A program made the position numbers and the translations under genes. 64,000 nt of DNA from an uncultured candidate division Zixibacteria bacterium (GTDB lineage: Bacteria; Zixibacteria; MSB-5A5; UBA10806; 4484-95), in contig CAXXKA010000008.1 of assembly GCA_963668625.2 (NCBI GenBank), positions 800,001 to 864,000 on the forward strand. Reading direction: 5' to 3'. This document shows, one piece after another, positions 3 to 13,942 of this stretch (its first letter is position 1; each line of letters begins with the position of its first letter). Under the pieces are notes generated by a model that saw only the letters and a list, made by a program, of their open reading frames with translations, did no database searches and was not told the DNA's origin.

Positions 3-269
3 GATTGTGCTTACGATGAAATACGAATTGTAAATGATCCGACGGAATTCTCCTCCTACCCAGTATCCGGTACGATGACACTGAATGTCACCATATCCTC
101 CAATGGCGACCAGGCAAGCGGAATACCCGAGGGAACCTGGACAGCCTCCGTGACCCTGACATTTACAGATGATGGCTATAGCGGTACGATGACTATCGAG
201 GGCGATAATTATACCTGGGATTCCGACTGGAGCGATCTTAGCGGTGTACTACCTGTTAGCAGGCCATAG
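3..269 (+). CDS. Hypothetical beta-rich exported protein, 3' part (runs off window start)
   Basis: Frame of ORF 75..269 stays open back to base 3 (DCAYDEIRIVND...); followed by hairpin 295-313. Confidence 0.65.
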   Translation, partial: DCAYDEIRIVNDPTEFSSYPVSGTMTLNVTISSNGDQASGIPEGTWTASVTLTFTDDGYSGTMTIEGDNYTWDSDWSDLSGVLPVSRP

Positions 270-313
270 TCTTTATAAGATGAATGCAAAAAAAGGCCGG
301 TATCATACCGGCC

Positions 314-728
314 AGGCTGTTGACAGATTAAGTCAACAGCCTTTTTGTTTTTGATCATATTTTCGTTATCCCTTATATCAAGATTATCATTGTCCCAATA
401 CGAGAAACGGGTAATCACTCGTCATGCTTGGCAGGATTGTAAAGAACTGATTAGAAAGAATATCCTTACGCCTCTGGGCAAGTATCTTCGGCATAGACGT
501 CGAGAGACAGTTGAAGGTCACCTGGCAATGCTTGATGACCGCCATTGCTATGAACATTAAGAAGATAGCCTGCTTTCTTCATTATGTTATCTATTATTGG
601 TTGGAAATTCGGTTAAATCCGGCGTTTTGACTTCAATAACTCGATTATACGCAATCTAAATTAATGATCCTTAAAAATACTACAAAAACAAAAGGGAGTC
701 TCGAAAAACTCCCTTTTGTCATCAGTCT
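314..728 (+). mobile_element. Internally deleted IS1182-family remnant
   Basis: Imperfect terminal IRs AGGCTGTTGACAGA / TTTGTCATCAGTCT; residual transposase C-terminal peptides KRVITRHAWQDCKE...RRRETVE and, in another frame, TAIAMNIKKIA. Confidence 0.6.
690..717. terminator. Bidirectional terminator-like hairpin
   Basis: AAAAGGGAGT-N8-ACTCCCTTTT, downstream of 777..2189 and inside the IS1182 right end. Confidence 0.55.
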
Positions 729-776
729 TGGGCGATCAAAGACCGCTTGTTGGTAATTTAAACTGATTTAATTTTA

Positions 777-2189
777 TCATTTAATCAACACCATCCGTCT
801 GGATTGGGAAATATCCCCAACATTCAAACGGTAATAATATACTCCACTGGATAATCCCAGGGCATTAAATGATACGGAATGCAATCCTGCCTGCCTGTCT
901 TCCTCTATAAGTGTCAGGATTTTTCTACCAAGCAAGTCGTAGATATCCAGCGTTACGAAATGAGATCGTTCTATCGTAAATGAAATCGTCGTTGTCGGAT
1001 TGAAAGGGTTTGGGTAATTGGGCGAAAGGCGAATATTTTCCGGCAGGACTTTATCGGAAGATTCGCCGATTCCGGTTTGTATAAGATTTATTAATATCGA
1101 AACATCACCTGAATTGGTATTAGCAACAGCCAGATCGCTACTGCCATCGCTATTTAGATCCGCCGCAAACAACGAATTGGGTCTGGTCCCGACTTCGCAA
1201 TTTATCTCCTCCGGAAATGTGCCAAAACCGGTATTGAGCAGCACTGATATATTATTGGAAAATTTGTTAGCCACCGCTATATCATTATTACCATCGCTAT
1301 CAAAATCCGCAGTAACTACTGAAACCGGTCTATTCCCAACATCATAGTTGACCGCTGCCTGAAATGTCCCATTGCCGTTATTGATAAACACCGAGATATT
1401 ATTAGAGCCGGTATTAGCTACGATCAGGTCGTTATAGCTATCTCCATCAAGATCATCCGCGCAAACTGAATTAGGACCGTTTCCGGCCTCGTAATTAACC
1501 GCTGTCTGGAATGTTCCATCACCGTCATTATGCAGCACTGAGACATCATCCGAATACTTATTAGCTATAGCCAGATCATTATCGTTGTCTCCATCAAGGT
1601 CAATCGCGAAAACCGAATAAGGACCATCCCCGGTCTCGAATATTCCCACGGCCTGAAATATACCGTCACCGCTATTACGAAACACTGAGATAGAATCAGA
1701 GAACTCATCAGTCACGGCCAGATCGATATCACCATCGCCGTCTAAATCAACCGCAGCCACTGAATTAGGATCCTGCCCCGCCTCATAATTGACCGGCGTC
1801 TGAAATGATCCATCACCGTTATTGAAAAGCACCGAGACGTTGTTCGAAATAATATTGCATACGGCTAAATCATTGGAATTATTACCATCCAAATCCGCTG
1901 CAAATACCGAAACAGGACGATCCCCGACAGCATAATTAACCGCTGCCTGAAATGTACCATCACTGTTATTGTGAAGTATCGAAACGTCATCGGAATCCCA
2001 ATTAGCCACAGCCAGATCATTGTCACCATCTCCATCCAGGTCATTTGCGAACACTGAATAAGGAGAAGTTCCTGCTCCATAATTAACGGGTGAGGCAAAA
2101 AGTGAATCTTGCGCGGCAGCCTGATTTATTGGGACTACTATCATTGAAAGTAGTATTAAGGCAAATGTAAAACTCTTTGAAATATGCAT
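777..2189 (-). CDS. Secreted FG-GAP/VCBS repeat protein with T9SS type A-like C-terminal sorting domain
   Basis: Signal peptide; about six 55-aa DLDGDGDxDLAV repeats; C-terminal NYPNPFNP...IYDLLGR...GVYYYRL...RMVLIK. Confidence 0.9.
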   Translation of the reverse strand: MHISKSFTFALILLSMIVVPINQAAAQDSLFASPVNYGAGTSPYSVFANDLDGDGDNDLAVANWDSDDVSILHNNSDGTFQAAVNYAVGDRPVSVFAADLDGNNSNDLAVCNIISNNVSVLFNNGDGSFQTPVNYEAGQDPNSVAAVDLDGDGDIDLAVTDEFSDSISVFRNSGDGIFQAVGIFETGDGPYSVFAIDLDGDNDNDLAIANKYSDDVSVLHNDGDGTFQTAVNYEAGNGPNSVCADDLDGDSYNDLIVANTGSNNISVFINNGNGTFQAAVNYDVGNRPVSVVTADFDSDGNNDIAVANKFSNNISVLLNTGFGTFPEEINCEVGTRPNSLFAADLNSDGSSDLAVANTNSGDVSILINLIQTGIGESSDKVLPENIRLSPNYPNPFNPTTTISFTIERSHFVTLDIYDLLGRKILTLIEEDRQAGLHSVSFNALGLSSGVYYYRLNVGDISQSRRMVLIK

Positions 2190-2518
2190 ACATCCTCCCG
2201 GTATTTTTAAATTTATTAATCCCTGTGATTGAAAATTATTATGGATATCTTCTATTAAGGCTGCAGATAAAACTTATGTCAGTGCATACGCTCAATATAA
2301 TAGTATATCAAACAAGTTCAAGAGAATTATAAAAATTGATAAAATGTTTCAATAGATTTCGCTGATGTTAATCTTTCATTCGTTGGATTGTTTTCGCCAG
2401 ATATTCGTTTATCAAATAAGGGTTTTATCTTTTCATCTTTGAATTAATTATTTTAAATCATCATATTAACATCAATGTTAGGGATAACTATTGTTAGCTT
2501 TTACAATCAGGAGACACG

Positions 2519-2670
2519 GTGAGAATTGCTCATGTATTGGTTTTGCTTACTACAATTTTTATGTTTCCGTATGATATCTTGGCCTTTGATCCTCTCTTTA
2601 TACCAGAATCGATTATACGGTAAGACGGTCTTCCTGCTCAATAGAGTCAGCCGATTATGATAACAACCTG
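2519..2670 (+). pseudogene. Remnant of another FG-GAP/VCBS gene (signal peptide plus first repeat)
   Basis: SD CAGGAG then GTG; RIAHVLVLLTTIFMFPYDILAFDPLF, then after a frameshift TRIDYTVRRSSCSIESADYDNN. Confidence 0.45.
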
Positions 2671-2839
2671 ATAGTGTCTAATTTAAATTTCGCAAACATC
2701 TCTATCCTGGGAAAAAATCCATTTCCGAGCGTTAATATATGCGTGTTTTTTCCCTTTTTGTTGACAATCCACATAAAATCATTAACTTAATATCAGTTGT
2801 GATTACCCGGATACCTCATCGATAAAGTGAGAATATTAA

Positions 2840-4066
2840 ATGAATAGATTAACAAAACTTATATTAACATCAGCATTGATATTGATAATTGCCTCGTTGA
2901 GCTGGTCATACGATACCGAGCATGTCGTAGTGGTGCTCATCGATGGCGTGAGATATACCGAAAGCTTCGGTGATACCACCGGAACCTATTGCCCGCGCTT
3001 GACCGCTTTGCAATCGCAGGGAGTCGTGCACGATTCGGCTTTCAATGATGTGGCAACTTATACCTCAATGGCCGTACCCGCTACCTTCATGGGCAGATTC
3101 TATGCGCTTCAGGATACATCGTACCTGGGCGAGGATGTTCAATTCTGCAGATACCCGACATTCTGGGAATACGCTCGCGCCGATTTAGGCCTTTCGGATA
3201 TCGATGCTATTTACATCACCCCCGACTATGGCTCCGGCACCTGGTTACCATCGTTTTACCCCGGATATGGCCCTGACTACTGGCCGTCATTTCATCAATC
3301 GGCCAACAGCGATGCCGCCGTATTCGATTCGGCACTAGCAGTAATAACGCGAGACCATCCGGTGATTAGCTATGTATATTTTCCGGAAACCGATCATGCC
3401 GGTCACACCGCTGATTGGAATTACTATATCTCCGCAATCAGGGAGGCGGACTCCTTGACTGCCTGTTTATGGGATTCCATTCAAGCCGATCCTGTCATGG
3501 CCGGCAAAACGACAATGATAGTGACAAACGATCATGGCCGTCACGATGATGCGCACGGTGGTTTTCAGGGTCATGGATGTGATTGTTTCGGATGCAGGCA
3601 CGTAATGTTGTTTGCCATAGGTCCTGATTTCAAACGAGGTGATCATGTCGATAGCCCCCGGGCCTCGATTACTGATATAGCAACCACTATCGGTGAGCTT
3701 CTGGAGTTCAATACGACATTCTGCACCGGAAGAGTACTACTCGAGATTTTCGGCGATTCCTACGATTATCTGCCCGGCGATTGCAACATGTACGCCGGTT
3801 CATGGCCGCCAGTCACGATCGGCGCGGATGTTACCTATCTGGTGAACTATTTCAGGGGTATTTCAACGCCCTGTTTGCAGGATGGTTTCTATGCATCGGG
3901 GGATGCTAATGGGGATTGCACTATTATCGGCAGTGATGTTACCTACCTGGTGAACTATTTCAGGGGCATCAACCCGGTTAATTACTGCCCCGATTATCCT
4001 CCCACCTGGTTATCTCCCGAGGATTTACCCGGTGAGGCGCCAAATACCTGGCCGGGATGCGAGTAG
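2840..4066 (+). CDS. Secreted alkaline-phosphatase-superfamily hydrolase with C-terminal dockerin-like domain
   Basis: VVVLIDGVR, ETDHAGH and TNDHGRH metal motifs; duplicated GDxN...DVTYLVNYFRG. Confidence 0.85.
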   Translation: MNRLTKLILTSALILIIASLSWSYDTEHVVVVLIDGVRYTESFGDTTGTYCPRLTALQSQGVVHDSAFNDVATYTSMAVPATFMGRFYALQDTSYLGEDVQFCRYPTFWEYARADLGLSDIDAIYITPDYGSGTWLPSFYPGYGPDYWPSFHQSANSDAAVFDSALAVITRDHPVISYVYFPETDHAGHTADWNYYISAIREADSLTACLWDSIQADPVMAGKTTMIVTNDHGRHDDAHGGFQGHGCDCFGCRHVMLFAIGPDFKRGDHVDSPRASITDIATTIGELLEFNTTFCTGRVLLEIFGDSYDYLPGDCNMYAGSWPPVTIGADVTYLVNYFRGISTPCLQDGFYASGDANGDCTIIGSDVTYLVNYFRGINPVNYCPDYPPTWLSPEDLPGEAPNTWPGCE

Positions 4067-7768: not shown

Positions 7769-8096
7769 TGAAAATAGTTGCGCTAATACCGGAAATAGTG
7801 GTTCGACTATAAACAGGCTGTAGCAATCTGATGGACAAAATTAGTGTTATATAATAAGTATCTGCCAACTGGCGTAGCTCGAGGATATCTTTAATACCAC
7901 ACTATTAAACCAGCCCGGCTGTTAATGATGCTTTATTAGGCTTAAAATTCTTGATATTGTAATAATAAAGTCAAGCTCGTTCCCTTCTTCAAAGACTTTA
8001 CTTGGCATCTTTAAAATATGCTTTAATAGCAATGATATAGCGCGCTAATTCTAATAAAAAGCTTGCACAAAATTCGATTTATCGTATATTTAACAT

Positions 8097-8201
8097 GACC
8101 AAAACGAGAGATGGGATGTTACTATCAGATATTCCCCCCAATCTTTGGACATCCCATTATAGGGGTGCCAGGGAGCCCTTCCCAGCGCCCCGCTTTTTTT
8201 T
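8097..8201 (+). ncRNA. Putative two-hairpin small RNA, copy 1
   Basis: TTGCAC-N16-TATATT (8063-8090); stem ATGGGATGT/ACATCCCAT with TTCCCCCC loop; second GC hairpin plus T8. Confidence 0.65.
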
Positions 8202-8379
8202 GCCTAATTTTCCAGACAATTCAATATAATCAGCAATTAATGAATCTATAGTGGTTGCCTGTAATGTAATACCGGAAATAGAATAGCGTGGCCGGCAGAT
8301 TCCCATATCTACCGGCGATACTACTAAATTGAACGGATTAAAGAAAGCGATATACTCCAGCCAAAGAAATAGCCAGGTA

Positions 8380-10695
8380 TTAGAACTCGTACTCGATCCC
8401 GAATATAGGCAAGGTCGACCACTGTTCGACCTCTCGTTGCTCGTTGGCGATCTCGTTCCACTCGTAAGTGCCGATATTTTTCCTGCCGTATACGTTCCAG
8501 ACACTCAGATAGAATATCAAGTTGGAGCCGGTGAAATTGAATCGCCTATCGAATCGGATGTTCATCGAATGATAATCCGGCAGTCGTTCGGCGTTGATTC
8601 GGTCGGAATCGTATATCCCCCGGCCGGCTGTCTCCGAGGCTGCGATATCAAATGGTGTGTAGGGGGCGCCGCCGGCATAAATCCACCTGGTGCTGAACTC
8701 CCATTTATTATTCGGCTTATATCCGCCCTCGATACTGAAATTAAACTGGTTGTCATAAGCCCTGTCATACCAGATACCATCATAGCCTTTATAACGCGTG
8801 CGCGAATAAGCTCCGCTGATCATCCCGTAGAACTGCTTGGCCAATTTTTTCTGCACCATGAACTCAATCCCCCGGGCATATGCCTCTCCCGAGGATACGA
8901 GCGGGTTTCCGGCCAGGTACACGCTTTTACCGGCTATGTCATCAACGATGAATATCTGTTGCTTGAGCGAATCGAGCGGAAAATCGCGGTATTCTTTATC
9001 GAATACCTCGATTGTCAGGCGAGTATTTTCGGTTAGCATGTGATTAATTCCGAATACGTAATGATATGCCTTCGGGTCTTTCAGGTCTTTGTTAGCCTCA
9101 TTTTGCGCCAGTATCGGCATCGGCAGGTTCTGATAGTAAATACCGGCCGCAGCGTTTAGGGTGGTCAGGCTTGAAAGTATGTAGTTGACCGATAAGCGAG
9201 GGGAGATACTGGAGTTCTCGTTATAGGTGAAATAAGAAAACCTCGTTCCGGCGGTGACTGACAAACGATCGAATGGATTTACCGTATAGCTGAAAAATCC
9301 ATGCAATTTAGTCTCGTTAATATTGTCATCAACGGAATATGCCGGGGTTACGTTACCCAGTTCATCGTAATATTCTCCATAGTAATTATTGTAATCGATC
9401 AGCGAGTATTTAGCCTCTACACCTAATTCTAACTTGTGAGCGTTGTTTAATTTGATGAAATTAACATTCCTCAGCTTGAATTCGTTCTCAGTCGAGTTAA
9501 AATCGAACGACATCAGTTCGGCGCCGTGATCGTAATAATATTTCGTGTCATAACCCGTGTAGTTATAGTCGTATAACGTATGAGATATGGAGGTGTTGGA
9601 ATAACCATTCGCTCCCCACAGGTATCGCCAGTTGATTCCGGCGGTATTGGCTGTCATATTGAAACTATCGTAATATTTCTCCTCCTCCTCGATAGCATCC
9701 TCGATCTCGTCTGCTATATCATCGATAGAGAGAATATTGAGCAAAGTAATCTGGTTATTGCCGTTAAGATCGTAAGTCACCTTGCCGTGAATATCGCCAT
9801 AATTCGGTACCGAACCGTCATCTTCGCCAATAGCTTTGACTATCAAATCGAGGAAGCTTTTTCGTCCGGCTAATATCCATGAGCCTTTATCGCCAATAGG
9901 CCCCTCGGCGCCGCCACCGAAACCGGCAAACCCCAGATCTAACTGGGCGTCGAACTCCTCCCGGTTACCATCCCGGAAATCGATATCCATCACCGAGGAG
10001 AGACGGTCGCCGTAACGAGCCGGGAATGCCCCCGAATGGAATTCGACATCCGAGACCAGATCGACATTGATTAGGCCAACCGGCCCGCCAGAGGAACTTT
10101 GTTCGGGGAAATGGTTGATATTGGGTATCTCTATATTATCTACATAAAAGCCGTTCTCGAATGAGGCGCCGCCTCGTACGTAGAGTGTGTTTTGGGTATT
10201 ATCGTACTTGGCGATACTCGGCAATCCCATTATCATCCGGCTGACATCCCCGGCGGTCCCCGGCATGCGACGGATTTCCTCGTTGGAGAAACTCACATTG
10301 CTGGCAGGCGCATCCTGACGCTCGGCGAAATAGCCGGTGGTTATCACTACCTCATCAACCTCGATAGCCGATTCATTCAACTCAGCTTTAACGAACGTGA
10401 TTCTTTTAGGACGTACGATAATATCAGCTTTAAGCATTACCTCGTATCCCAGTAGCCTGAATTTCAGCGAGTAATTCCCCACCGGTACGTTCTCGATCGT
10501 AAATTCGCCGTCGCTAGAGCTAACCGCGCCTTTTTCCGTGCCAAGCAGGATTACGCTTACACCGGGAAGCGCAGATCTTGTTTCCGAATCTATCACCGTA
10601 CCGCTGATACTACCCTTTTTGATCTCATCAGCAGAGGCTATCGTGAATAAAATCGCTATCATTATCAATGCTAAAATTATCTTACTCATTTTCAA
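8380..10695 (-). CDS. TonB-dependent receptor with carboxypeptidase-regulatory-like N-terminal domain
   Basis: Signal peptide; plug motif VRGG...N.FYVDNIEI; FPARYGDRLSSVMD; C-terminal GIEYEF. Confidence 0.92.
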   Translation of the reverse strand: MKMSKIILALIMIAILFTIASADEIKKGSISGTVIDSETRSALPGVSVILLGTEKGAVSSSDGEFTIENVPVGNYSLKFRLLGYEVMLKADIIVRPKRITFVKAELNESAIEVDEVVITTGYFAERQDAPASNVSFSNEEIRRMPGTAGDVSRMIMGLPSIAKYDNTQNTLYVRGGASFENGFYVDNIEIPNINHFPEQSSSGGPVGLINVDLVSDVEFHSGAFPARYGDRLSSVMDIDFRDGNREEFDAQLDLGFAGFGGGAEGPIGDKGSWILAGRKSFLDLIVKAIGEDDGSVPNYGDIHGKVTYDLNGNNQITLLNILSIDDIADEIEDAIEEEEKYYDSFNMTANTAGINWRYLWGANGYSNTSISHTLYDYNYTGYDTKYYYDHGAELMSFDFNSTENEFKLRNVNFIKLNNAHKLELGVEAKYSLIDYNNYYGEYYDELGNVTPAYSVDDNINETKLHGFFSYTVNPFDRLSVTAGTRFSYFTYNENSSISPRLSVNYILSSLTTLNAAAGIYYQNLPMPILAQNEANKDLKDPKAYHYVFGINHMLTENTRLTIEVFDKEYRDFPLDSLKQQIFIVDDIAGKSVYLAGNPLVSSGEAYARGIEFMVQKKLAKQFYGMISGAYSRTRYKGYDGIWYDRAYDNQFNFSIEGGYKPNNKWEFSTRWIYAGGAPYTPFDIAASETAGRGIYDSDRINAERLPDYHSMNIRFDRRFNFTGSNLIFYLSVWNVYGRKNIGTYEWNEIANEQREVEQWSTLPIFGIEYEF

Positions 10696-10698
10696 TCC

Positions 10699-11268
10699 TT
10701 ATGCATTTCTATATTTTTTTATCTCAGTATCAATTACCGCCATTCCCATCTCGGTTAGAACACCACCGATATATTCTATGCTGTCATCTTTTACCACCCC
10801 GGCGCAAATCATAGTGGCCAGGCCATGCGTAAACAGCCAGCTTTTCTGAAGAATCGAGCGGCGCGCGTCATCATTCAGACCGTCGAAACGACTATCAGTC
10901 CTCATTGAATCGAAAGCCTGATCAATAAATTCATTAATGACATCCTTAAAATCATGATTTTCCATAAACAGCGAGCGAAACAGCATTTTCTCATCCCGGG
11001 CAAATAGCACAATACCGATACCGATATTTCTAAACGGGTACTTCGTATATGTGCGTTTCGTATACTCGAGTAACAGGTCTTTAGACTCCTTATATATCTC
11101 TTTTTCTACTTCCGGCATGTTTTTAAACTGACTGTAAACCGGCGCAGTGGAGGACTTCAACACTCCAGCGATTTTCCTGGCGGTTAAACCCTTTATCCCC
11201 TGTATTCGAGCTAATTCAAATGCGGCAGCGATAATACCCTTTCTGGTATATTTATTTTTAGGTGGCAT
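10699..11268 (-). CDS. TetR/AcrR family regulator
   Basis: N-terminal HTH LTARKIA...STAPVYSQF. Confidence 0.9.
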   Translation of the reverse strand: MPPKNKYTRKGIIAAAFELARIQGIKGLTARKIAGVLKSSTAPVYSQFKNMPEVEKEIYKESKDLLLEYTKRTYTKYPFRNIGIGIVLFARDEKMLFRSLFMENHDFKDVINEFIDQAFDSMRTDSRFDGLNDDARRSILQKSWLFTHGLATMICAGVVKDDSIEYIGGVLTEMGMAVIDTEIKKYRNA

Positions 11269-11283
11269 AGCAACAAACCTTCC

Positions 11284-11317
11284 TATAACACACGTAATAT
11301 AACATAGGTTATATTAC
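11284..11317. promoter_or_regulatory. Probable TetR operator
   Basis: Perfect IR GTAATATAAC-ATAG-GTTATATTAC (11294-11317) plus overlapping degenerate copy TATAAC-ACAC-GTAATA, just upstream of tetR. Confidence 0.7.
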
Positions 11318-11403
11318 ACATTATTGATAGAATTGTTTCGCTTATTTTTTTGATATCTAAGAATTTTAATTGATTTTTATAAACAATGTGTTATAAATTA
11401 GAG

Positions 11404-11507
11404 TATAAAATAAAAGAGATGGGAATAAGCAGAAAGGCTCAGCCCCTTGTCTTTTTGAATATCCCATTTATTGGGACGCCAGGCTTTGCCGGGTGTCCTT
11501 TTTTTTT
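11404..11507 (+). ncRNA. Putative two-hairpin small RNA, copy 2
   Basis: TTGATT-N16-TATAAA; ATGGGA/TCCCAT outer stem, CAGAAAGGC/GTCTTTTTG inner stem, loop TCAGCCCCTT; terminator plus T9. Confidence 0.65.
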
Positions 11508-11552
11508 ATAAATTGATTTTGCATTTGCCCATGCTATTAAGTATAATAGAAA

Positions 11553-11645
11553 CCTGGGATGTAACTTGAAGGACGAAGCCCCTGGTCACTTCGACATCCC
11601 GTTTTATAGGCCGTCAGACTTAGATGTTTGACGGCCGCTTTATTA
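11553..11645 (+). ncRNA. Putative two-hairpin small RNA, copy 3
   Basis: TTGCAT-N17-TATAAT (11519-11547); GGGATGT/ACATCCC stem, loop GAAGCCCCTG; GGCCGTCAGAC/GTTTGACGGCC hairpin. Confidence 0.65.
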
Positions 11646-11670
11646 ACATAGCTAGACATCTATACTATAT

Positions 11671-13677
11671 TCAGGAAATGCGATCTTTCGACTCATTATT
11701 ATTATGGATTTTCTGCATTTCCTTCTTCATACAATCCGGGCAGATACTATGGGTAAATTCTGCGCCGGAATGATCGGAGACATAGGCCTCCACCTCAGTC
11801 CAGTATCCTTTGTCATCCCTGACGTTTTTACAATATGAACAAATAGGCAACAATCCGCTGAGGGTTTTCACTTTGGTAAGGGCTTGTTTAAGTTCAAGGA
11901 TTAATCGCTCTCGTTCGTCCTCGGCGGCTTTGCGGCGGGTTATATCGCGCAGAGTTGTTACGATTTTTAATGGTTTACCGTTTTCGCCGTATAGAAGTTT
12001 GGAGTTTATCGAGCAGATAATATCCTCGCCGTTTTTTGAGCGCATCCCCACCTCGTAATCGTTGAGCCATCCATGTTTTAATAGATGGTTGATTAGCTCT
12101 GGTCTTCTTCCCGGATCCATATATACGATTTCACTGGAATTGCCGACTAAATCATAACGTGTATATCCAAGTATTTTTTCCATTGATGGGCTTGCTTCAA
12201 GGATGATTCCATTCATACTGGTCTCTATATAACCATCATGAATATTCTCGAATATCCTTCTATATTTGGCCTCGCTCTCTTTTAAAGCCTGTTGTGTTGT
12301 TTTGCTTTCTGTGATATCACGAACAACGGCATATATTAATTCTTTCTCCGGAACAGGAATCGAGTTCCATGATAGCCACCGGTAAGAACCATCCTTGCAT
12401 TTGTACCTATTCTCGAATTCCAATACGCTATGTCCCTGCTGTAGTTGATCACAAGCCATTTTGGTTTTTTCGACATCTTCCGGGTGCACGAAATTAATCC
12501 AGGGTTTGCTGGTTATTTCTTCGGTAGTCCAACCGAGTATCCTTTTAACCGCCGGGTTTGTTTGCTTGAAATAACCATCCGTAGAAGCAACGCACTGGAA
12601 ATCCGGGGATAGGTTGAATAAGCGGGATCGCTCCTCCTCGGCTCGGATTCTCTGAACCAAACCCCAGATATTTTCAGCTAACAGGGCTAACTGATTGATA
12701 TCGAAATCATCATAGTTTTCATTCTTGTTGCCCATGCCGATTATGGCTACTATTTTATCGTTCTCAAAAACAGGTACCGTAAGATCGCGCATCAAGTTGA
12801 TATGGCCCTCGGGTAATCCTTTCTTATGCGGCAGGCCTGCGTAGTCGTTATGTATAACTGGTTTTCTTTGATGAACACAGTCAACCCAGACACCGGCTTT
12901 TTCGATCGAGTAATGAGATTCACTACTATCCGCCAGGCAGTTTTTCAAAGTACTATCCGACCATCTGAAAAGATTGATAGATTTTTGATCGTCGCTGACG
13001 AAATGAAGAAAACCGATCTTGCTACCGGTCAAACGTTGCCCCTCTTCTATGCCGGTTTTTATTATATCATCCACCGTGGCTTGTCCGAGCATACGGGCAA
13101 TTTTTATTATTGATTTAAGCGTATTCTCGGCTATTTTCTGAGGTTTAATATTCTGCAGCATACAAAAATAAGCGTTGTTTCGACTATGTTCCACACAATA
13201 AAGGTTCACATAAATAGGGGTGCCGTTCTTATGTAAAAATGTGAACTCTTGTTTATGTATTCCTGCTGATCCATCGTATACGATAGAGCATTCTTTGATT
13301 TTCGCTAAACTATCTTCCGAAATGAATTTATCGATTTTCTGGCCTATTACATCATGACTTTCATAACCGAACATATTTAACCAGGCACTATTAACGTCGA
13401 CTATAATTAGTTCTTTAGTGATTGAATGTATAGGAATGGGAACGTTTTCCAGAAAATTAGCTGTTTCGATATTATCATCCCTAATTCTATTCACGTAATC
13501 ATATATCGAGCTTTCAAAATCGCTGTTTTTAGCTTTCGCTAATTTTCCGATAGGTGCAGTTGCTGTCTGACCGGGATTGGTTAATTTGATACTTCTACGT
13601 TCCCGGCCGTAATTTCGGTTTTTACTTTCTGGCAATCTGCGAGAATTATTTAGCCTACGAATGAAGGCCGGTCTCAT
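11671..13677 (-). CDS. PAS-GAF-PAS-PAS sensor with C-terminal Cys-rich domain (no kinase domain)
   Basis: PAS ends (RDIT), GAF (VIHNDY...VPV...GNK), tail LLPICSYCK...THSICPDC. Confidence 0.85.
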   Translation of the reverse strand: MRPAFIRRLNNSRRLPESKNRNYGRERRSIKLTNPGQTATAPIGKLAKAKNSDFESSIYDYVNRIRDDNIETANFLENVPIPIHSITKELIIVDVNSAWLNMFGYESHDVIGQKIDKFISEDSLAKIKECSIVYDGSAGIHKQEFTFLHKNGTPIYVNLYCVEHSRNNAYFCMLQNIKPQKIAENTLKSIIKIARMLGQATVDDIIKTGIEEGQRLTGSKIGFLHFVSDDQKSINLFRWSDSTLKNCLADSSESHYSIEKAGVWVDCVHQRKPVIHNDYAGLPHKKGLPEGHINLMRDLTVPVFENDKIVAIIGMGNKNENYDDFDINQLALLAENIWGLVQRIRAEEERSRLFNLSPDFQCVASTDGYFKQTNPAVKRILGWTTEEITSKPWINFVHPEDVEKTKMACDQLQQGHSVLEFENRYKCKDGSYRWLSWNSIPVPEKELIYAVVRDITESKTTQQALKESEAKYRRIFENIHDGYIETSMNGIILEASPSMEKILGYTRYDLVGNSSEIVYMDPGRRPELINHLLKHGWLNDYEVGMRSKNGEDIICSINSKLLYGENGKPLKIVTTLRDITRRKAAEDERERLILELKQALTKVKTLSGLLPICSYCKNVRDDKGYWTEVEAYVSDHSGAEFTHSICPDCMKKEMQKIHNNNESKDRIS

Positions 13678-13942
13678 GTACCCCCCTATACATAAAATGC
13701 CGTTAATATATTATCGGATTGATGTTAAGCTCAATCCGTTAATAATTACCGGAACGTAAATAATGTTACACTCACTAAACAAAATCTGGTTGTCTGTTTT
13801 TATTATTAATCCTTCACTTCAGATATCTCAAAGTAATCGATTACATATTAATGCATTTCAACTCAGATATTAACATTTTCAGGGAGGCTAAAATTAAATA
13901 TTCCCCTTGCCCGAACTCCACAATATCCATATCTTTGCCCCA

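What the first reader, a model, noticed from the sequence alone, without database searches (positions are those of the whole stretch)
8063..11645. Family of three paralogous two-hairpin small RNAs with C-rich loops
Seen: three ~95-105 nt intergenic units (8097-8201, 11404-11507, 11553-11645), all on +, opposite to the TonB/TetR/PAS genes. Each has its own sigma-70-like promoter (copy 3: TTGCAT-N17-TATAAT). Each has hairpin 1 closed by TGGGA(TGT).../...(ACA)TCCC, a different but pairing inner stem, and a C-rich loop (TTCCCCCC, AGCCCCT, AGCCCCT). A TTAT linker and a GC-rich terminator hairpin follow. Structure is conserved while stem sequence varies, and no ORF is shared. Copies 2 and 3 are tandem. 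I do not recognise the family. Inference: sibling sRNAs that pair with G-rich ribosome-binding sites (the adjacent PAS gene has AGGGGGG at 13681-13687) or titrate an RNA-binding protein.
Basis: partly seen in the sequence, partly recalled or inferred. Interest (0 to 1): 0.85.

Follow-up and report, generated by a model that had tools for sequence, protein, structure and literature searches.

The report
Three sibling C-loop small RNA genes
Three related small-RNA genes sit around a transporter operon in an uncultured Zixibacteria genome; each displays a cytosine-rich loop on a conserved hairpin, a design that known bacterial regulatory RNAs use to block ribosome-binding sites, but their targets are still unknown.

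Summary
Three units of about 95 nt lie on the + strand at 8108-8201, 11416-11509 and 11551-11644. Each is a promoter-like site, a long two-part hairpin with a C-run in its apical loop, a U-rich linker and a terminator hairpin.

- **Copy number:** a covariance model finds only these three in the 4.3-Mb genome (85-97 bits; next best 17 bits).
- **Rfam:** no family matches at its gathering score.
- **Relatives:** I accepted one homolog in each of four other genomes, covering two genera of one family. A named record with an identical copy is titled Candidatus Zixiibacteriota.
- **Structure:** stems vary with compensating changes. 18 of 27 pairs change on both sides; 0 of 500 shuffles reach this. 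The C-run stays unpaired in 7 of 7 folds.
- **Coding:** no conserved ORF.

This is most likely a new family of stand-alone sibling small RNAs. That they pair with G-rich ribosome-binding sites is inferred from analogy with RsaE/RoxS and LhrC. My target scans showed no enrichment, and three tested candidate sites, including the adjacent PAS gene, were not conserved in relatives. The kind is known, the family is new, and interest is moderate.

The parts
8063..8090 (+). Copy 1 promoter-like site: TTGCAC (8063-8068), 16-nt spacer, TATATT (8085-8090). The predicted start is near 8097.
   Evidence: Read. It does not pass the scan's rule of 4 matches in 6 per hexamer.
8110..8158 (+). Copy 1 hairpin 1: an outer stem (GAUGGGAUGU/ACAUCCCAUU) and an inner stem. 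The apical loop AUUCCCCCCA is at 8131-8140.
   Evidence: RNAfold, (hairpin alone: z = -3.6, 0 of 300 shuffles fold as well).
8162..8201 (+). Copy 1 terminator hairpin (8162-8191), followed by a run of 8 T (8194-8201).
11370..11397 (+). Copy 2 promoter-like site: TTGATT (11370-11375), 16-nt spacer ending in TGT, TATAAA (11392-11397). The predicted start is near 11404. GTGTTATAA sits at nearly the same offset from the stem in G001.
   Evidence: Read; shared word.
11417..11469 (+). Copy 2 hairpin 1. The apical loop UCAGCCCCUU is at 11439-11448.
   Evidence: z = -4.2, 0 of 300.
11473..11507 (+). Copy 2 terminator hairpin (11473-11499) with its T-run extending to 11507.
11519..11547 (+). Copy 3 promoter-like site: TTGCAT, 17-nt spacer, TATAAT. 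The predicted start is near 11554.
   Evidence: (10 of 12 matches).
11555..11601 (+). Copy 3 hairpin 1. The apical loop GAAGCCCCUG is at 11575-11584.
   Evidence: z = -2.9, 1 of 300.
11609..11645 (+). Copy 3 terminator hairpin (11609-11636, 11 pairs) with the tail GCTTTATTA.

Best explanation
The three units are paralogous genes for stand-alone small RNAs of roughly 85-105 nt. They belong to a family conserved in at least two genera of one family of Zixibacteria.

**Anatomy.** Each gene has its own promoter-like site and ends in an intrinsic terminator. The RNA is a long two-part hairpin. Its stems drift in sequence but keep pairing, and it presents a 9-14-nt apical loop with an invariant run of at least 4 C, usually AGCCCC followed by a pyrimidine. 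A U-rich linker and the terminator hairpin follow.

**Proposed mechanism (inferred, not shown).** The exposed C-rich loop pairs in trans with G-rich stretches of mRNAs, typically Shine-Dalgarno-like sequences. This would block ribosome loading or change mRNA stability, and would work without Hfq. The three diverged loops and flanks (UUCCCCCCAA, CAGCCCCUUG, AAGCCCCUGG) would give the siblings overlapping but not identical target sets.
For: **Shown**
- The three units score 85-97 bits and nothing else in the genome exceeds 17 bits.
- Each unit folds better than its shuffles.
- I accepted homologs in G001 and G002 (same genus) and in G006 and G009 (a second genus). They lie in unrelated gene neighbourhoods, so the unit is conserved for its own sake and not as part of a neighbouring gene.
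- On the 7-sequence alignment, 82.6% of cells are paired against 66.1% in shuffles (0 of 500 reach the observed value). 18 of 27 pairs change on both sides against 11.2 +/- 2.0 (0 of 500). Structures slid by 1-3 columns give at most 9 such pairs.
- The C-run is in the apical loop in 7 of 7 minimum-energy folds, although overall identity is only 52-67% between paralogs and between genera.
- No downstream gene lies on the same strand. The TonB receptor and PAS genes converge on copies 1 and 3, so the units are not leaders.
- This genome has a canonical anti-SD (CCUCC) and uses AGGAGG-type SDs. G-run variants such as AGGGG occur in 77 of 2007 well-defined start regions, against 11 and 22 in controls, so G-rich partners do exist at ribosome-binding sites.
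- The G001 and G002 loops read AGCCCCUCCU, which contains the anti-SD core.
- Hfq was not found.

**By analogy**
- RsaE/RoxS carry C-rich regions that pair with SD sequences (PMC4409812, passages read).
- The five-copy LhrC uses UCCC motifs in loops to bind a G-rich site upstream of the lapB start codon, without needing Hfq (PMC4132741, passages read).
Against: - There is no expression evidence of any kind.
- Only copy 3 has a promoter that passes the scan's rules.
- Predicted duplex energies of the three loops with 3304 start regions are no better than with coding windows or shuffled loops.
- The complement of the conserved core (GGGGCT or AGGGGC) occurs in 34 of 3304 start regions, against 41 coding and 34 upstream windows.
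- Three candidate sites were checked in relatives and none was conserved. These were the PAS gene in G001, a SulP permease in 0 of 2 orthologs and an HD/OB protein in 0 of 4 orthologs.
- The covariation test used an alignment fitted to the model by Infernal, which leans towards the structure, and only 7 related sequences.
- The family was found in 5 genomes only.
Confidence: 0.55

Rival explanations
1. The RNAs act by binding and titrating an RNA-binding protein, such as CsrA or a protein that binds C-rich loops, rather than by pairing with mRNAs.
For: - CsrA is encoded in the genome (85.8 bits).
- Multiple sibling copies are typical of protein-sponge RNAs (my own knowledge).
- No mRNA target signal emerged.
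- The loop motif is conserved more tightly than a base-pairing seed with varied targets would need.
Against: Each RNA has only 2-3 GGA triplets, and in the predicted folds they lie mostly inside stems. CsrA sponges, as I recall them, carry many GGA motifs in loops. No protein known to bind C-rich loops was identified here.
Confidence: 0.13
2. The units are 3'-end modules of the upstream same-strand genes, that is 3'-UTR-derived small RNAs or structured 3' UTRs, and not independently transcribed genes.
For: - In G006, G009 and G001 the unit starts about 80-120 nt downstream of the stop codon of a same-strand gene.
- Copy 1 lies 340 nt downstream of the arylsulfotransferase-like gene.
- The promoter calls for copies 1 and 2 are weak.
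Against: - Copy 2 has no upstream same-strand gene. It diverges from the TetR-like gene.
- Copy 3 follows the terminator of copy 2 and has a near-consensus promoter.
- The upstream genes are unrelated between genomes.
- A -10-like hexamer lies 13-31 nt upstream of the stem in the copies I read.
Confidence: 0.12
3. The units are a selfish or non-functional repeat (a MITE or REP-like element), or chance hairpins placed before terminators.
For: Three similar short units lie within 3.6 kb. No function has been shown.
Against: - There are only three copies in 4.3 Mb, at 56-64% mutual identity over the whole unit (62-67% over hairpin 1 plus linker).
- I read no terminal inverted repeats or target-site duplications.
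- There is no match in the phage or plasmid collections.
- Single copies are conserved across two genera with compensatory changes and an invariant loop.
Confidence: 0.03
4. The units encode small proteins that start at the conserved ATGGGA.
For: ATGGGA opens short frames in copy 1 (46 codons), copy 2, G001 and G002.
Against: - Copy 3 has CTGGGA, and the G006 and G009 sequences have AAAGGG.
- The peptides are unrelated beyond Met-Gly.
- G001 and G002 are 79-81% identical in DNA but shift frame in the middle.
- No SD lies at a proper distance from the ATG.
Confidence: 0.02

Closest known systems
LhrC1-5 of Listeria monocytogenes (multicopy sibling small RNAs)
   Same: - Several paralogous copies of about 100 nt.
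- The same layout of stem-loop, single-stranded stretch and terminator.
- C-rich (UCCC) motifs in loops that bind a G-rich site just upstream of a start codon and block translation.
- Hfq is not required.

(PMC4132741, passages read.)
   Different: - LhrC copies are almost identical and carry three redundant CU-rich sites. Here the copies are only 56-67% identical, with one exposed C-run each. A second UCCC lies paired in the 3' arm of the outer stem.
- There is no sequence or model similarity: no Rfam family reaches its gathering score.
- The phylum differs.
- LhrC is driven by the LisRK two-component system. No regulator is known here.
RsaE / RoxS of Staphylococcus and Bacillus
   Same: A small RNA whose conserved C-rich regions pair with G-rich Shine-Dalgarno sequences to inhibit translation (PMC4409812, passages read).
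   Different: RsaE/RoxS is single-copy with several C-rich regions. It is conserved across Firmicutes and has known metabolic targets. The present family did not match it: no Rfam family reached its gathering score in the window, and none of the 5 sub-threshold matches was RsaE. It has one loop C-run and is confined, as far as I searched, to two genera.
Streptococcal csRNAs (recalled from memory; no call or paper read here)
   Same: As I recall them: several paralogous two-hairpin small RNAs per genome, some in tandem, with an unpaired stretch complementary to the SD and start codon.
   Different: There was no match when the window was scanned against all of Rfam. The comparison rests on recall only.
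Rfam ncr1241 (Bacillus small RNA), the best sub-threshold Rfam match
   Same: A small hairpin followed by a terminator aligns to 11431-11504.
   Different: It scores 32.1 bits against a gathering score of 60 (E = 0.012). The match is carried by the terminator hairpin and U-tail and does not cover hairpin 1 properly. I treat it as a generic terminator resemblance.

Membership tests
Any Rfam 15 family (RsaE, LhrC and csRNA models are in Rfam as I recall) | The covariance-model score reaches the family's gathering score. | tested here: not met
   0 matches in the whole window; 5 matches with E up to 10 in 7900-11900, all far below gathering (best 32.1 against 60 bits).
C-rich-loop, SD-targeting small RNAs (functional class: RsaE/RoxS, LhrC, RNAIII-type loops) | A C-rich motif exposed in an unpaired loop of a stable hairpin. 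| tested here: met
   The C-run is in the apical loop in 7 of 7 minimum-energy folds.
C-rich-loop, SD-targeting small RNAs (functional class) | Base-pairing with G-rich ribosome-binding sites of defined target mRNAs. | tested here: inconclusive
   There is no enrichment of predicted duplexes or of core complements at start regions. Three candidate sites are not conserved in relatives. G-run SD variants do exist in the genome.
C-rich-loop, SD-targeting small RNAs (functional class) | Transcribed as a discrete small RNA. | not testable with these tools
   No usable RNA data were available (see Tried and rejected). Promoter-like and terminator elements are seen by sequence only.
Sibling (multicopy paralogous) small RNAs | Two or more homologous small-RNA genes in one genome that share structure and seed. 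| tested here: met
   Three copies, two of them in tandem. They share the fold and the C-run.
MITE / REP-type repeat | Many dispersed copies with terminal inverted repeats or target-site duplications. | tested here: not met
   There are three copies only, and none in the phage or plasmid collections. I read no TIR or TSD.
CsrA/RsmA-titrating RNAs | Multiple GGA motifs presented in hairpin loops. | tested here: not met
   There are 2-3 GGA triplets per RNA, mostly inside predicted stems. The csrA gene itself is present.
Cis-regulatory leader / riboswitch | Lies upstream of, and on the same strand as, the gene it controls. | tested here: not met
   Each unit ends in a terminator and is followed by a convergent gene or by another unit.

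The most novel reading that the evidence does not exclude
The hairpin is a dedicated display platform for an anti-Shine-Dalgarno-like C-rich loop (AGCCCCUCCU in two relatives). Under this reading the siblings act as competitors of 16S rRNA for the subset of mRNAs with G-run ribosome-binding sites. That would be a lineage-specific, Hfq-independent layer of translational control in an uncultured phylum where no regulatory RNA has been described. Alternatively, the invariant loop is the recognition site of an RNA-binding protein not yet known. Neither reading is excluded by the data, and neither is supported beyond the anatomy.
Probability: 0.1. Interest if true: 0.6.

Novelty: new member of a known kind. 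Interest (0 to 1): 0.4.

Why it matters
- **Gap in the literature.** Zixibacteria are known only from metagenome-assembled genomes. My full-text search for 'Zixibacteria' with 'small RNA' returned one paper, unrelated by its title.
- **A usable starting point.** This is a small-RNA family supported by covariation, with three diverged siblings in one genome. It gives a concrete handle on post-transcriptional regulation in this lineage and could seed a new Rfam entry.
- **A wider point.** It would also show that the design of a C-rich loop acting on a G-rich ribosome-binding site, documented in the papers read here for Staphylococcus, Bacillus and Listeria (all Firmicutes), recurs in a lineage where Hfq was not found and which a record title places in Candidatus Zixiibacteriota.
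- **Limits.** Targets, regulator and expression are all unknown, so its present value is as a well-defined candidate and not as a mechanism.

Tried and rejected
**Database and collection searches**
- **Rfam:** nothing at gathering score, and only chance-level or terminator-driven sub-threshold hits.
- **BLAST of the units against 40 relatives:** only short chance matches. One of them (L012) was read and rejected.
- **Exact-pattern scan of genome contigs:** R1 was run on the 80 loci listed. Only L051 scored well (40.1 bits), and its copy is identical to that of G001. The rest scored at most 27.6 bits and were terminators or chance.
- **Stricter pattern scan of metagenome contigs:** 38 stretches, none above 17.3 bits with R1, so all are chance.
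- **Phage and plasmid collections:** no match.

**Weak covariance-model hits read one by one**
- 2 of 15 accepted.
- 1 of 7 accepted.
- 0 of 7 accepted, with G019 doubtful.
- 1 of 13 accepted, with G138 doubtful.
- 0 of 5 accepted.
- BLAST of the doubtful G019 unit in 24 genomes of the order found no conserved relative. BLAST of the G006 unit did not find the G009 copy that the model later found.

**Target prediction**
- Duplex energies showed no excess.
- Core complements were not enriched.
- I followed a lead that type-IX-secretion cargo genes might be targets, because 3 of 8 hand-picked candidates carry Por_Secre_tail. It failed on all 148 mapped cargo genes: Mann-Whitney p = 0.055, 0.998 and 1, with 3, 1 and 0 cargo genes in the top 25.
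The motif is present in mRNA sense but ranks 70-607 of 3304 and is absent from the closest G001 relative.

**Other negative or unavailable results**
- Adjacent genes: the TonB receptor and TetR-like start regions show no complementarity.
- Expression: no RNA holder was listed for the stretch.
- Supplementary files of papers were not consulted.


Full report
**What is in the sequence**

A covariance model places them at 8108-8201, 11416-11509 and 11551-11644.

Each consists of five parts:
- An AT-rich upstream region with a -35/-10-like pair.
- A long hairpin made of an outer stem (UGGGAUGU/ACAUCCCA in copies 1 and 3; UGGGA(A)UA/UAUCCCA in copy 2) and an inner stem of unrelated sequence.
- An apical loop of 10 nt with a C-run: AUUCCCCCCA, UCAGCCCCUU or GAAGCCCCUG.
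- A U-rich linker that contains UUAU.
- A GC-rich terminator hairpin.

The whole units fold better than dinucleotide shuffles (z = -3.6, -4.0, -6.5). Hairpin 1 alone does so too (z = -3.6, -4.2, -2.9).

Only copy 3 has a promoter that passes the scan's rules (TTTGCA-18-TATAAT, equivalent to TTGCAT-17-TATAAT). Copies 1 and 2 have weaker matches that I read by eye (TTGCAC-16-TATATT; TTGATT-16-TATAAA preceded by TGT). The region as a whole has no more promoter-like sites than shuffles.

The units run opposite to a TonB-dependent receptor gene (8380-10695), a weakly TetR-like gene (10699-11268) and a PAS/GAF sensor gene (11671-13677). Copy 1 converges on the receptor gene. Copy 2 diverges from the TetR-like gene. 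Copy 3 follows copy 2 after about 41 nt and converges on the PAS gene. None of the three is followed by a gene on its own strand, so they are not leaders.

**More than chance, and not a known family**

- In the 4.3-Mb genome (10 contigs, 45% G+C) the model built from the three units scores them at 96.7, 86.6 and 84.5 bits. The next best scores are 17.1 and 15.0 bits.
- Rfam 15 gives no match at gathering score anywhere in the window.
- With permissive settings the best match is ncr1241 at 32.1 bits against a gathering score of 60. It is carried by the terminator of copy 2.
- The phage and plasmid collections hold nothing similar.

**Relatives**

BLAST found nothing in 40 related genomes. Covariance models did.

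| Model | Genomes searched | New homolog accepted |
|---|---|---|
| R1 (3 sequences) | 101 | G001 (40.1 bits) and G002 (26.4 bits), both same genus |
| R2 (5 sequences) | family (10), order (24) | G006, a second genus |
| R3 | 151 genomes of the class, twice | G009, same genus as G006 |

Every other hit I read was a bare terminator or unrelated. Two were doubtful (G019 and G138).

As far as I searched, the family is in 3 of 3 genomes of the window's genus and 2 of 2 genomes of a second genus of the same family. It was not found in the other 5 genomes of that family. Weak relatives may have been lost to Infernal's filters.

A named record that carries a copy identical to that of G001 is titled Candidatus Zixiibacteriota. 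That places the genus in that phylum.

Only the window's genome has three copies. The other four have one each. The neighbours differ in every genome, so what is conserved is the unit itself.

**Structure is conserved while sequence drifts**

- Pairwise identity is 56-64% among the three paralogs over the whole unit and 62-67% over hairpin 1. It is 52-64% (52-67% over hairpin 1) between these and the other genomes' copies, and between the two genera. It is 79-81% for G001/G002 and 70-75% for G006/G009.
- All seven sequences nevertheless fold into the same two-part hairpin with the C-run in the apical loop (7 of 7).
- The outer stem changes from UGGGAUGU/ACAUCCCA to UGGGAAGC/GCUUCUCA and to AAAGGGU/ACCCUUU. 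The inner stems are different sequences that still pair.
- On the 7-sequence alignment, 82.6% of cells are paired against 66.1% in shuffles. 18 of 27 pairs change on both sides against 11.2 +/- 2.0. In both cases 0 of 500 shuffles reach the observed value. Sliding the 3' partners by 1-3 columns gives at most 9 such pairs.
- Two caveats apply. The alignment was fitted to the model, which favours the structure, and seven related sequences are few.
- No ORF is conserved. ATGGGA opens short frames in four sequences, but the peptides are unrelated, and the closely related G001 and G002 shift frame.

**How it probably works**

The anatomy is that of a trans-acting base-pairing small RNA: own promoter, a stable hairpin displaying a conserved single-stranded motif, a U-rich linker and a terminator. 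The conserved element is a C-run, usually AGCCCC followed by a pyrimidine. In G001 and G002 it reads AGCCCCUCCU and so contains the anti-Shine-Dalgarno core.

The genome has a canonical 16S 3' end. It uses AGGAGG-type ribosome-binding sites, with G-run variants in a minority of genes: AGGGG occurs in 77 of 2007 start regions against 11 and 22 in controls. Hfq was not found and CsrA is present.

The closest functional precedents are the following:
- RsaE/RoxS, whose C-rich regions pair with SD sequences (PMC4409812, passages).
- The five-copy LhrC of Listeria, whose UCCC loop motifs bind a G-rich site upstream of the lapB start codon without needing Hfq (PMC4132741, passages).

I therefore favour translational repression by loop-SD pairing, with the three siblings covering overlapping target sets. 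This step is inference.

**What speaks against it, or remains open**

- I found no target signal. Duplex energies of the three loops with 3304 start regions are no better than with coding windows or shuffled loops.
- The complement of the conserved core is not enriched at start regions (34 of 3304, against 41 and 34 in controls).
- The PAS gene does carry AGGGGGG three bases before its AUG on the minus strand. It ranks only 96th, 70th and 607th of 3304 for the three copies, and its closest relative in G001 lacks a G-run.
- Two further candidates lose the motif in their orthologs.
- An apparent link to type-IX-secretion cargo genes did not survive a test on all 148 mapped cargo genes.
- Gene starts were called crudely by my own script and accessibility was ignored, so these negatives are weak.
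- No expression data were available.

**Rivals**

- **Protein-titrating RNA.** This is possible, since csrA is present, but the GGA triplets are few and lie mostly in stems.
- **3'-UTR-derived RNA.** This fits the position of the G001, G006 and G009 copies, 80-120 nt behind same-strand genes. It does not fit copies 2 and 3, and the upstream genes are unrelated.
- **A repeat element or a small protein.** The counts and frames above disfavour both.

**Verdict**

This is a real, previously uncatalogued family of sibling small RNAs in a Zixibacteria lineage. It is of a known mechanistic kind, C-rich loop regulators, with mechanism and targets inferred but untested. My full-text searches found no description of small RNAs in this phylum (one paper, unrelated by its title; none). 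Interest is moderate.

Noticed in passing
window 11294-11317: A perfect 10-nt inverted repeat, GTAATATAAC-N4-GTTATATTAC, lies 26-49 nt upstream of the TetR-like gene's start and about 55 nt upstream of copy 2's -35. It looks like a TetR-type operator and could tie the regulator to the divergent small-RNA gene.
   Followed up: no
L197:1501-1597(-) with gene 1719-3095(-); L252:1501-1602(+) with gene 143-1420(+): In both genomes of the second genus the small-RNA gene lies 80-120 nt downstream of a gene with a type-IX-secretion sorting domain (Por_Secre_tail). The two proteins are alike only in that domain. This may be coincidence, since the window's genome has at least 150 such domains.
   Followed up: partly
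G000:C8:527541-527617 (-), outside the window: The best non-family model hit in the own genome (17-19.5 bits) is a short hairpin with a UAUUCC loop followed by a strong terminator. It may be another small RNA or a gene's 3' end.
   Followed up: no
L219:1501-1584(-) (G019) and L240:1501-1610(-) (G138): Two doubtful distant relatives. G019 has a hairpin with AGCCCCUGCU at its tip, followed by a linker and a terminator. G138 has GGGA.../...UCCCAUU closing a loop GAAGCCAUCCCCUCCA but lacks a clear terminator. BLAST found no conserved kin of the G019 unit.
   Followed up: partly
window 11671-13677 (-): The 668-aa PAS/GAF/PAS protein shows only sensor domains in Pfam and NCBIfam. No kinase, cyclase or DNA-binding output domain was recognised in its last 80 or so residues.
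   Followed up: no
window 10584-10649 (-): A weak Hammerhead_HH9 match (18.7 bits against a gathering score of 52, E = 0.47) lies inside the TonB receptor gene. I take it as chance.
   Followed up: no
Their start regions carry AGGAG more often than other genes do (61 of 148 against 660 of 3156).
   Followed up: no
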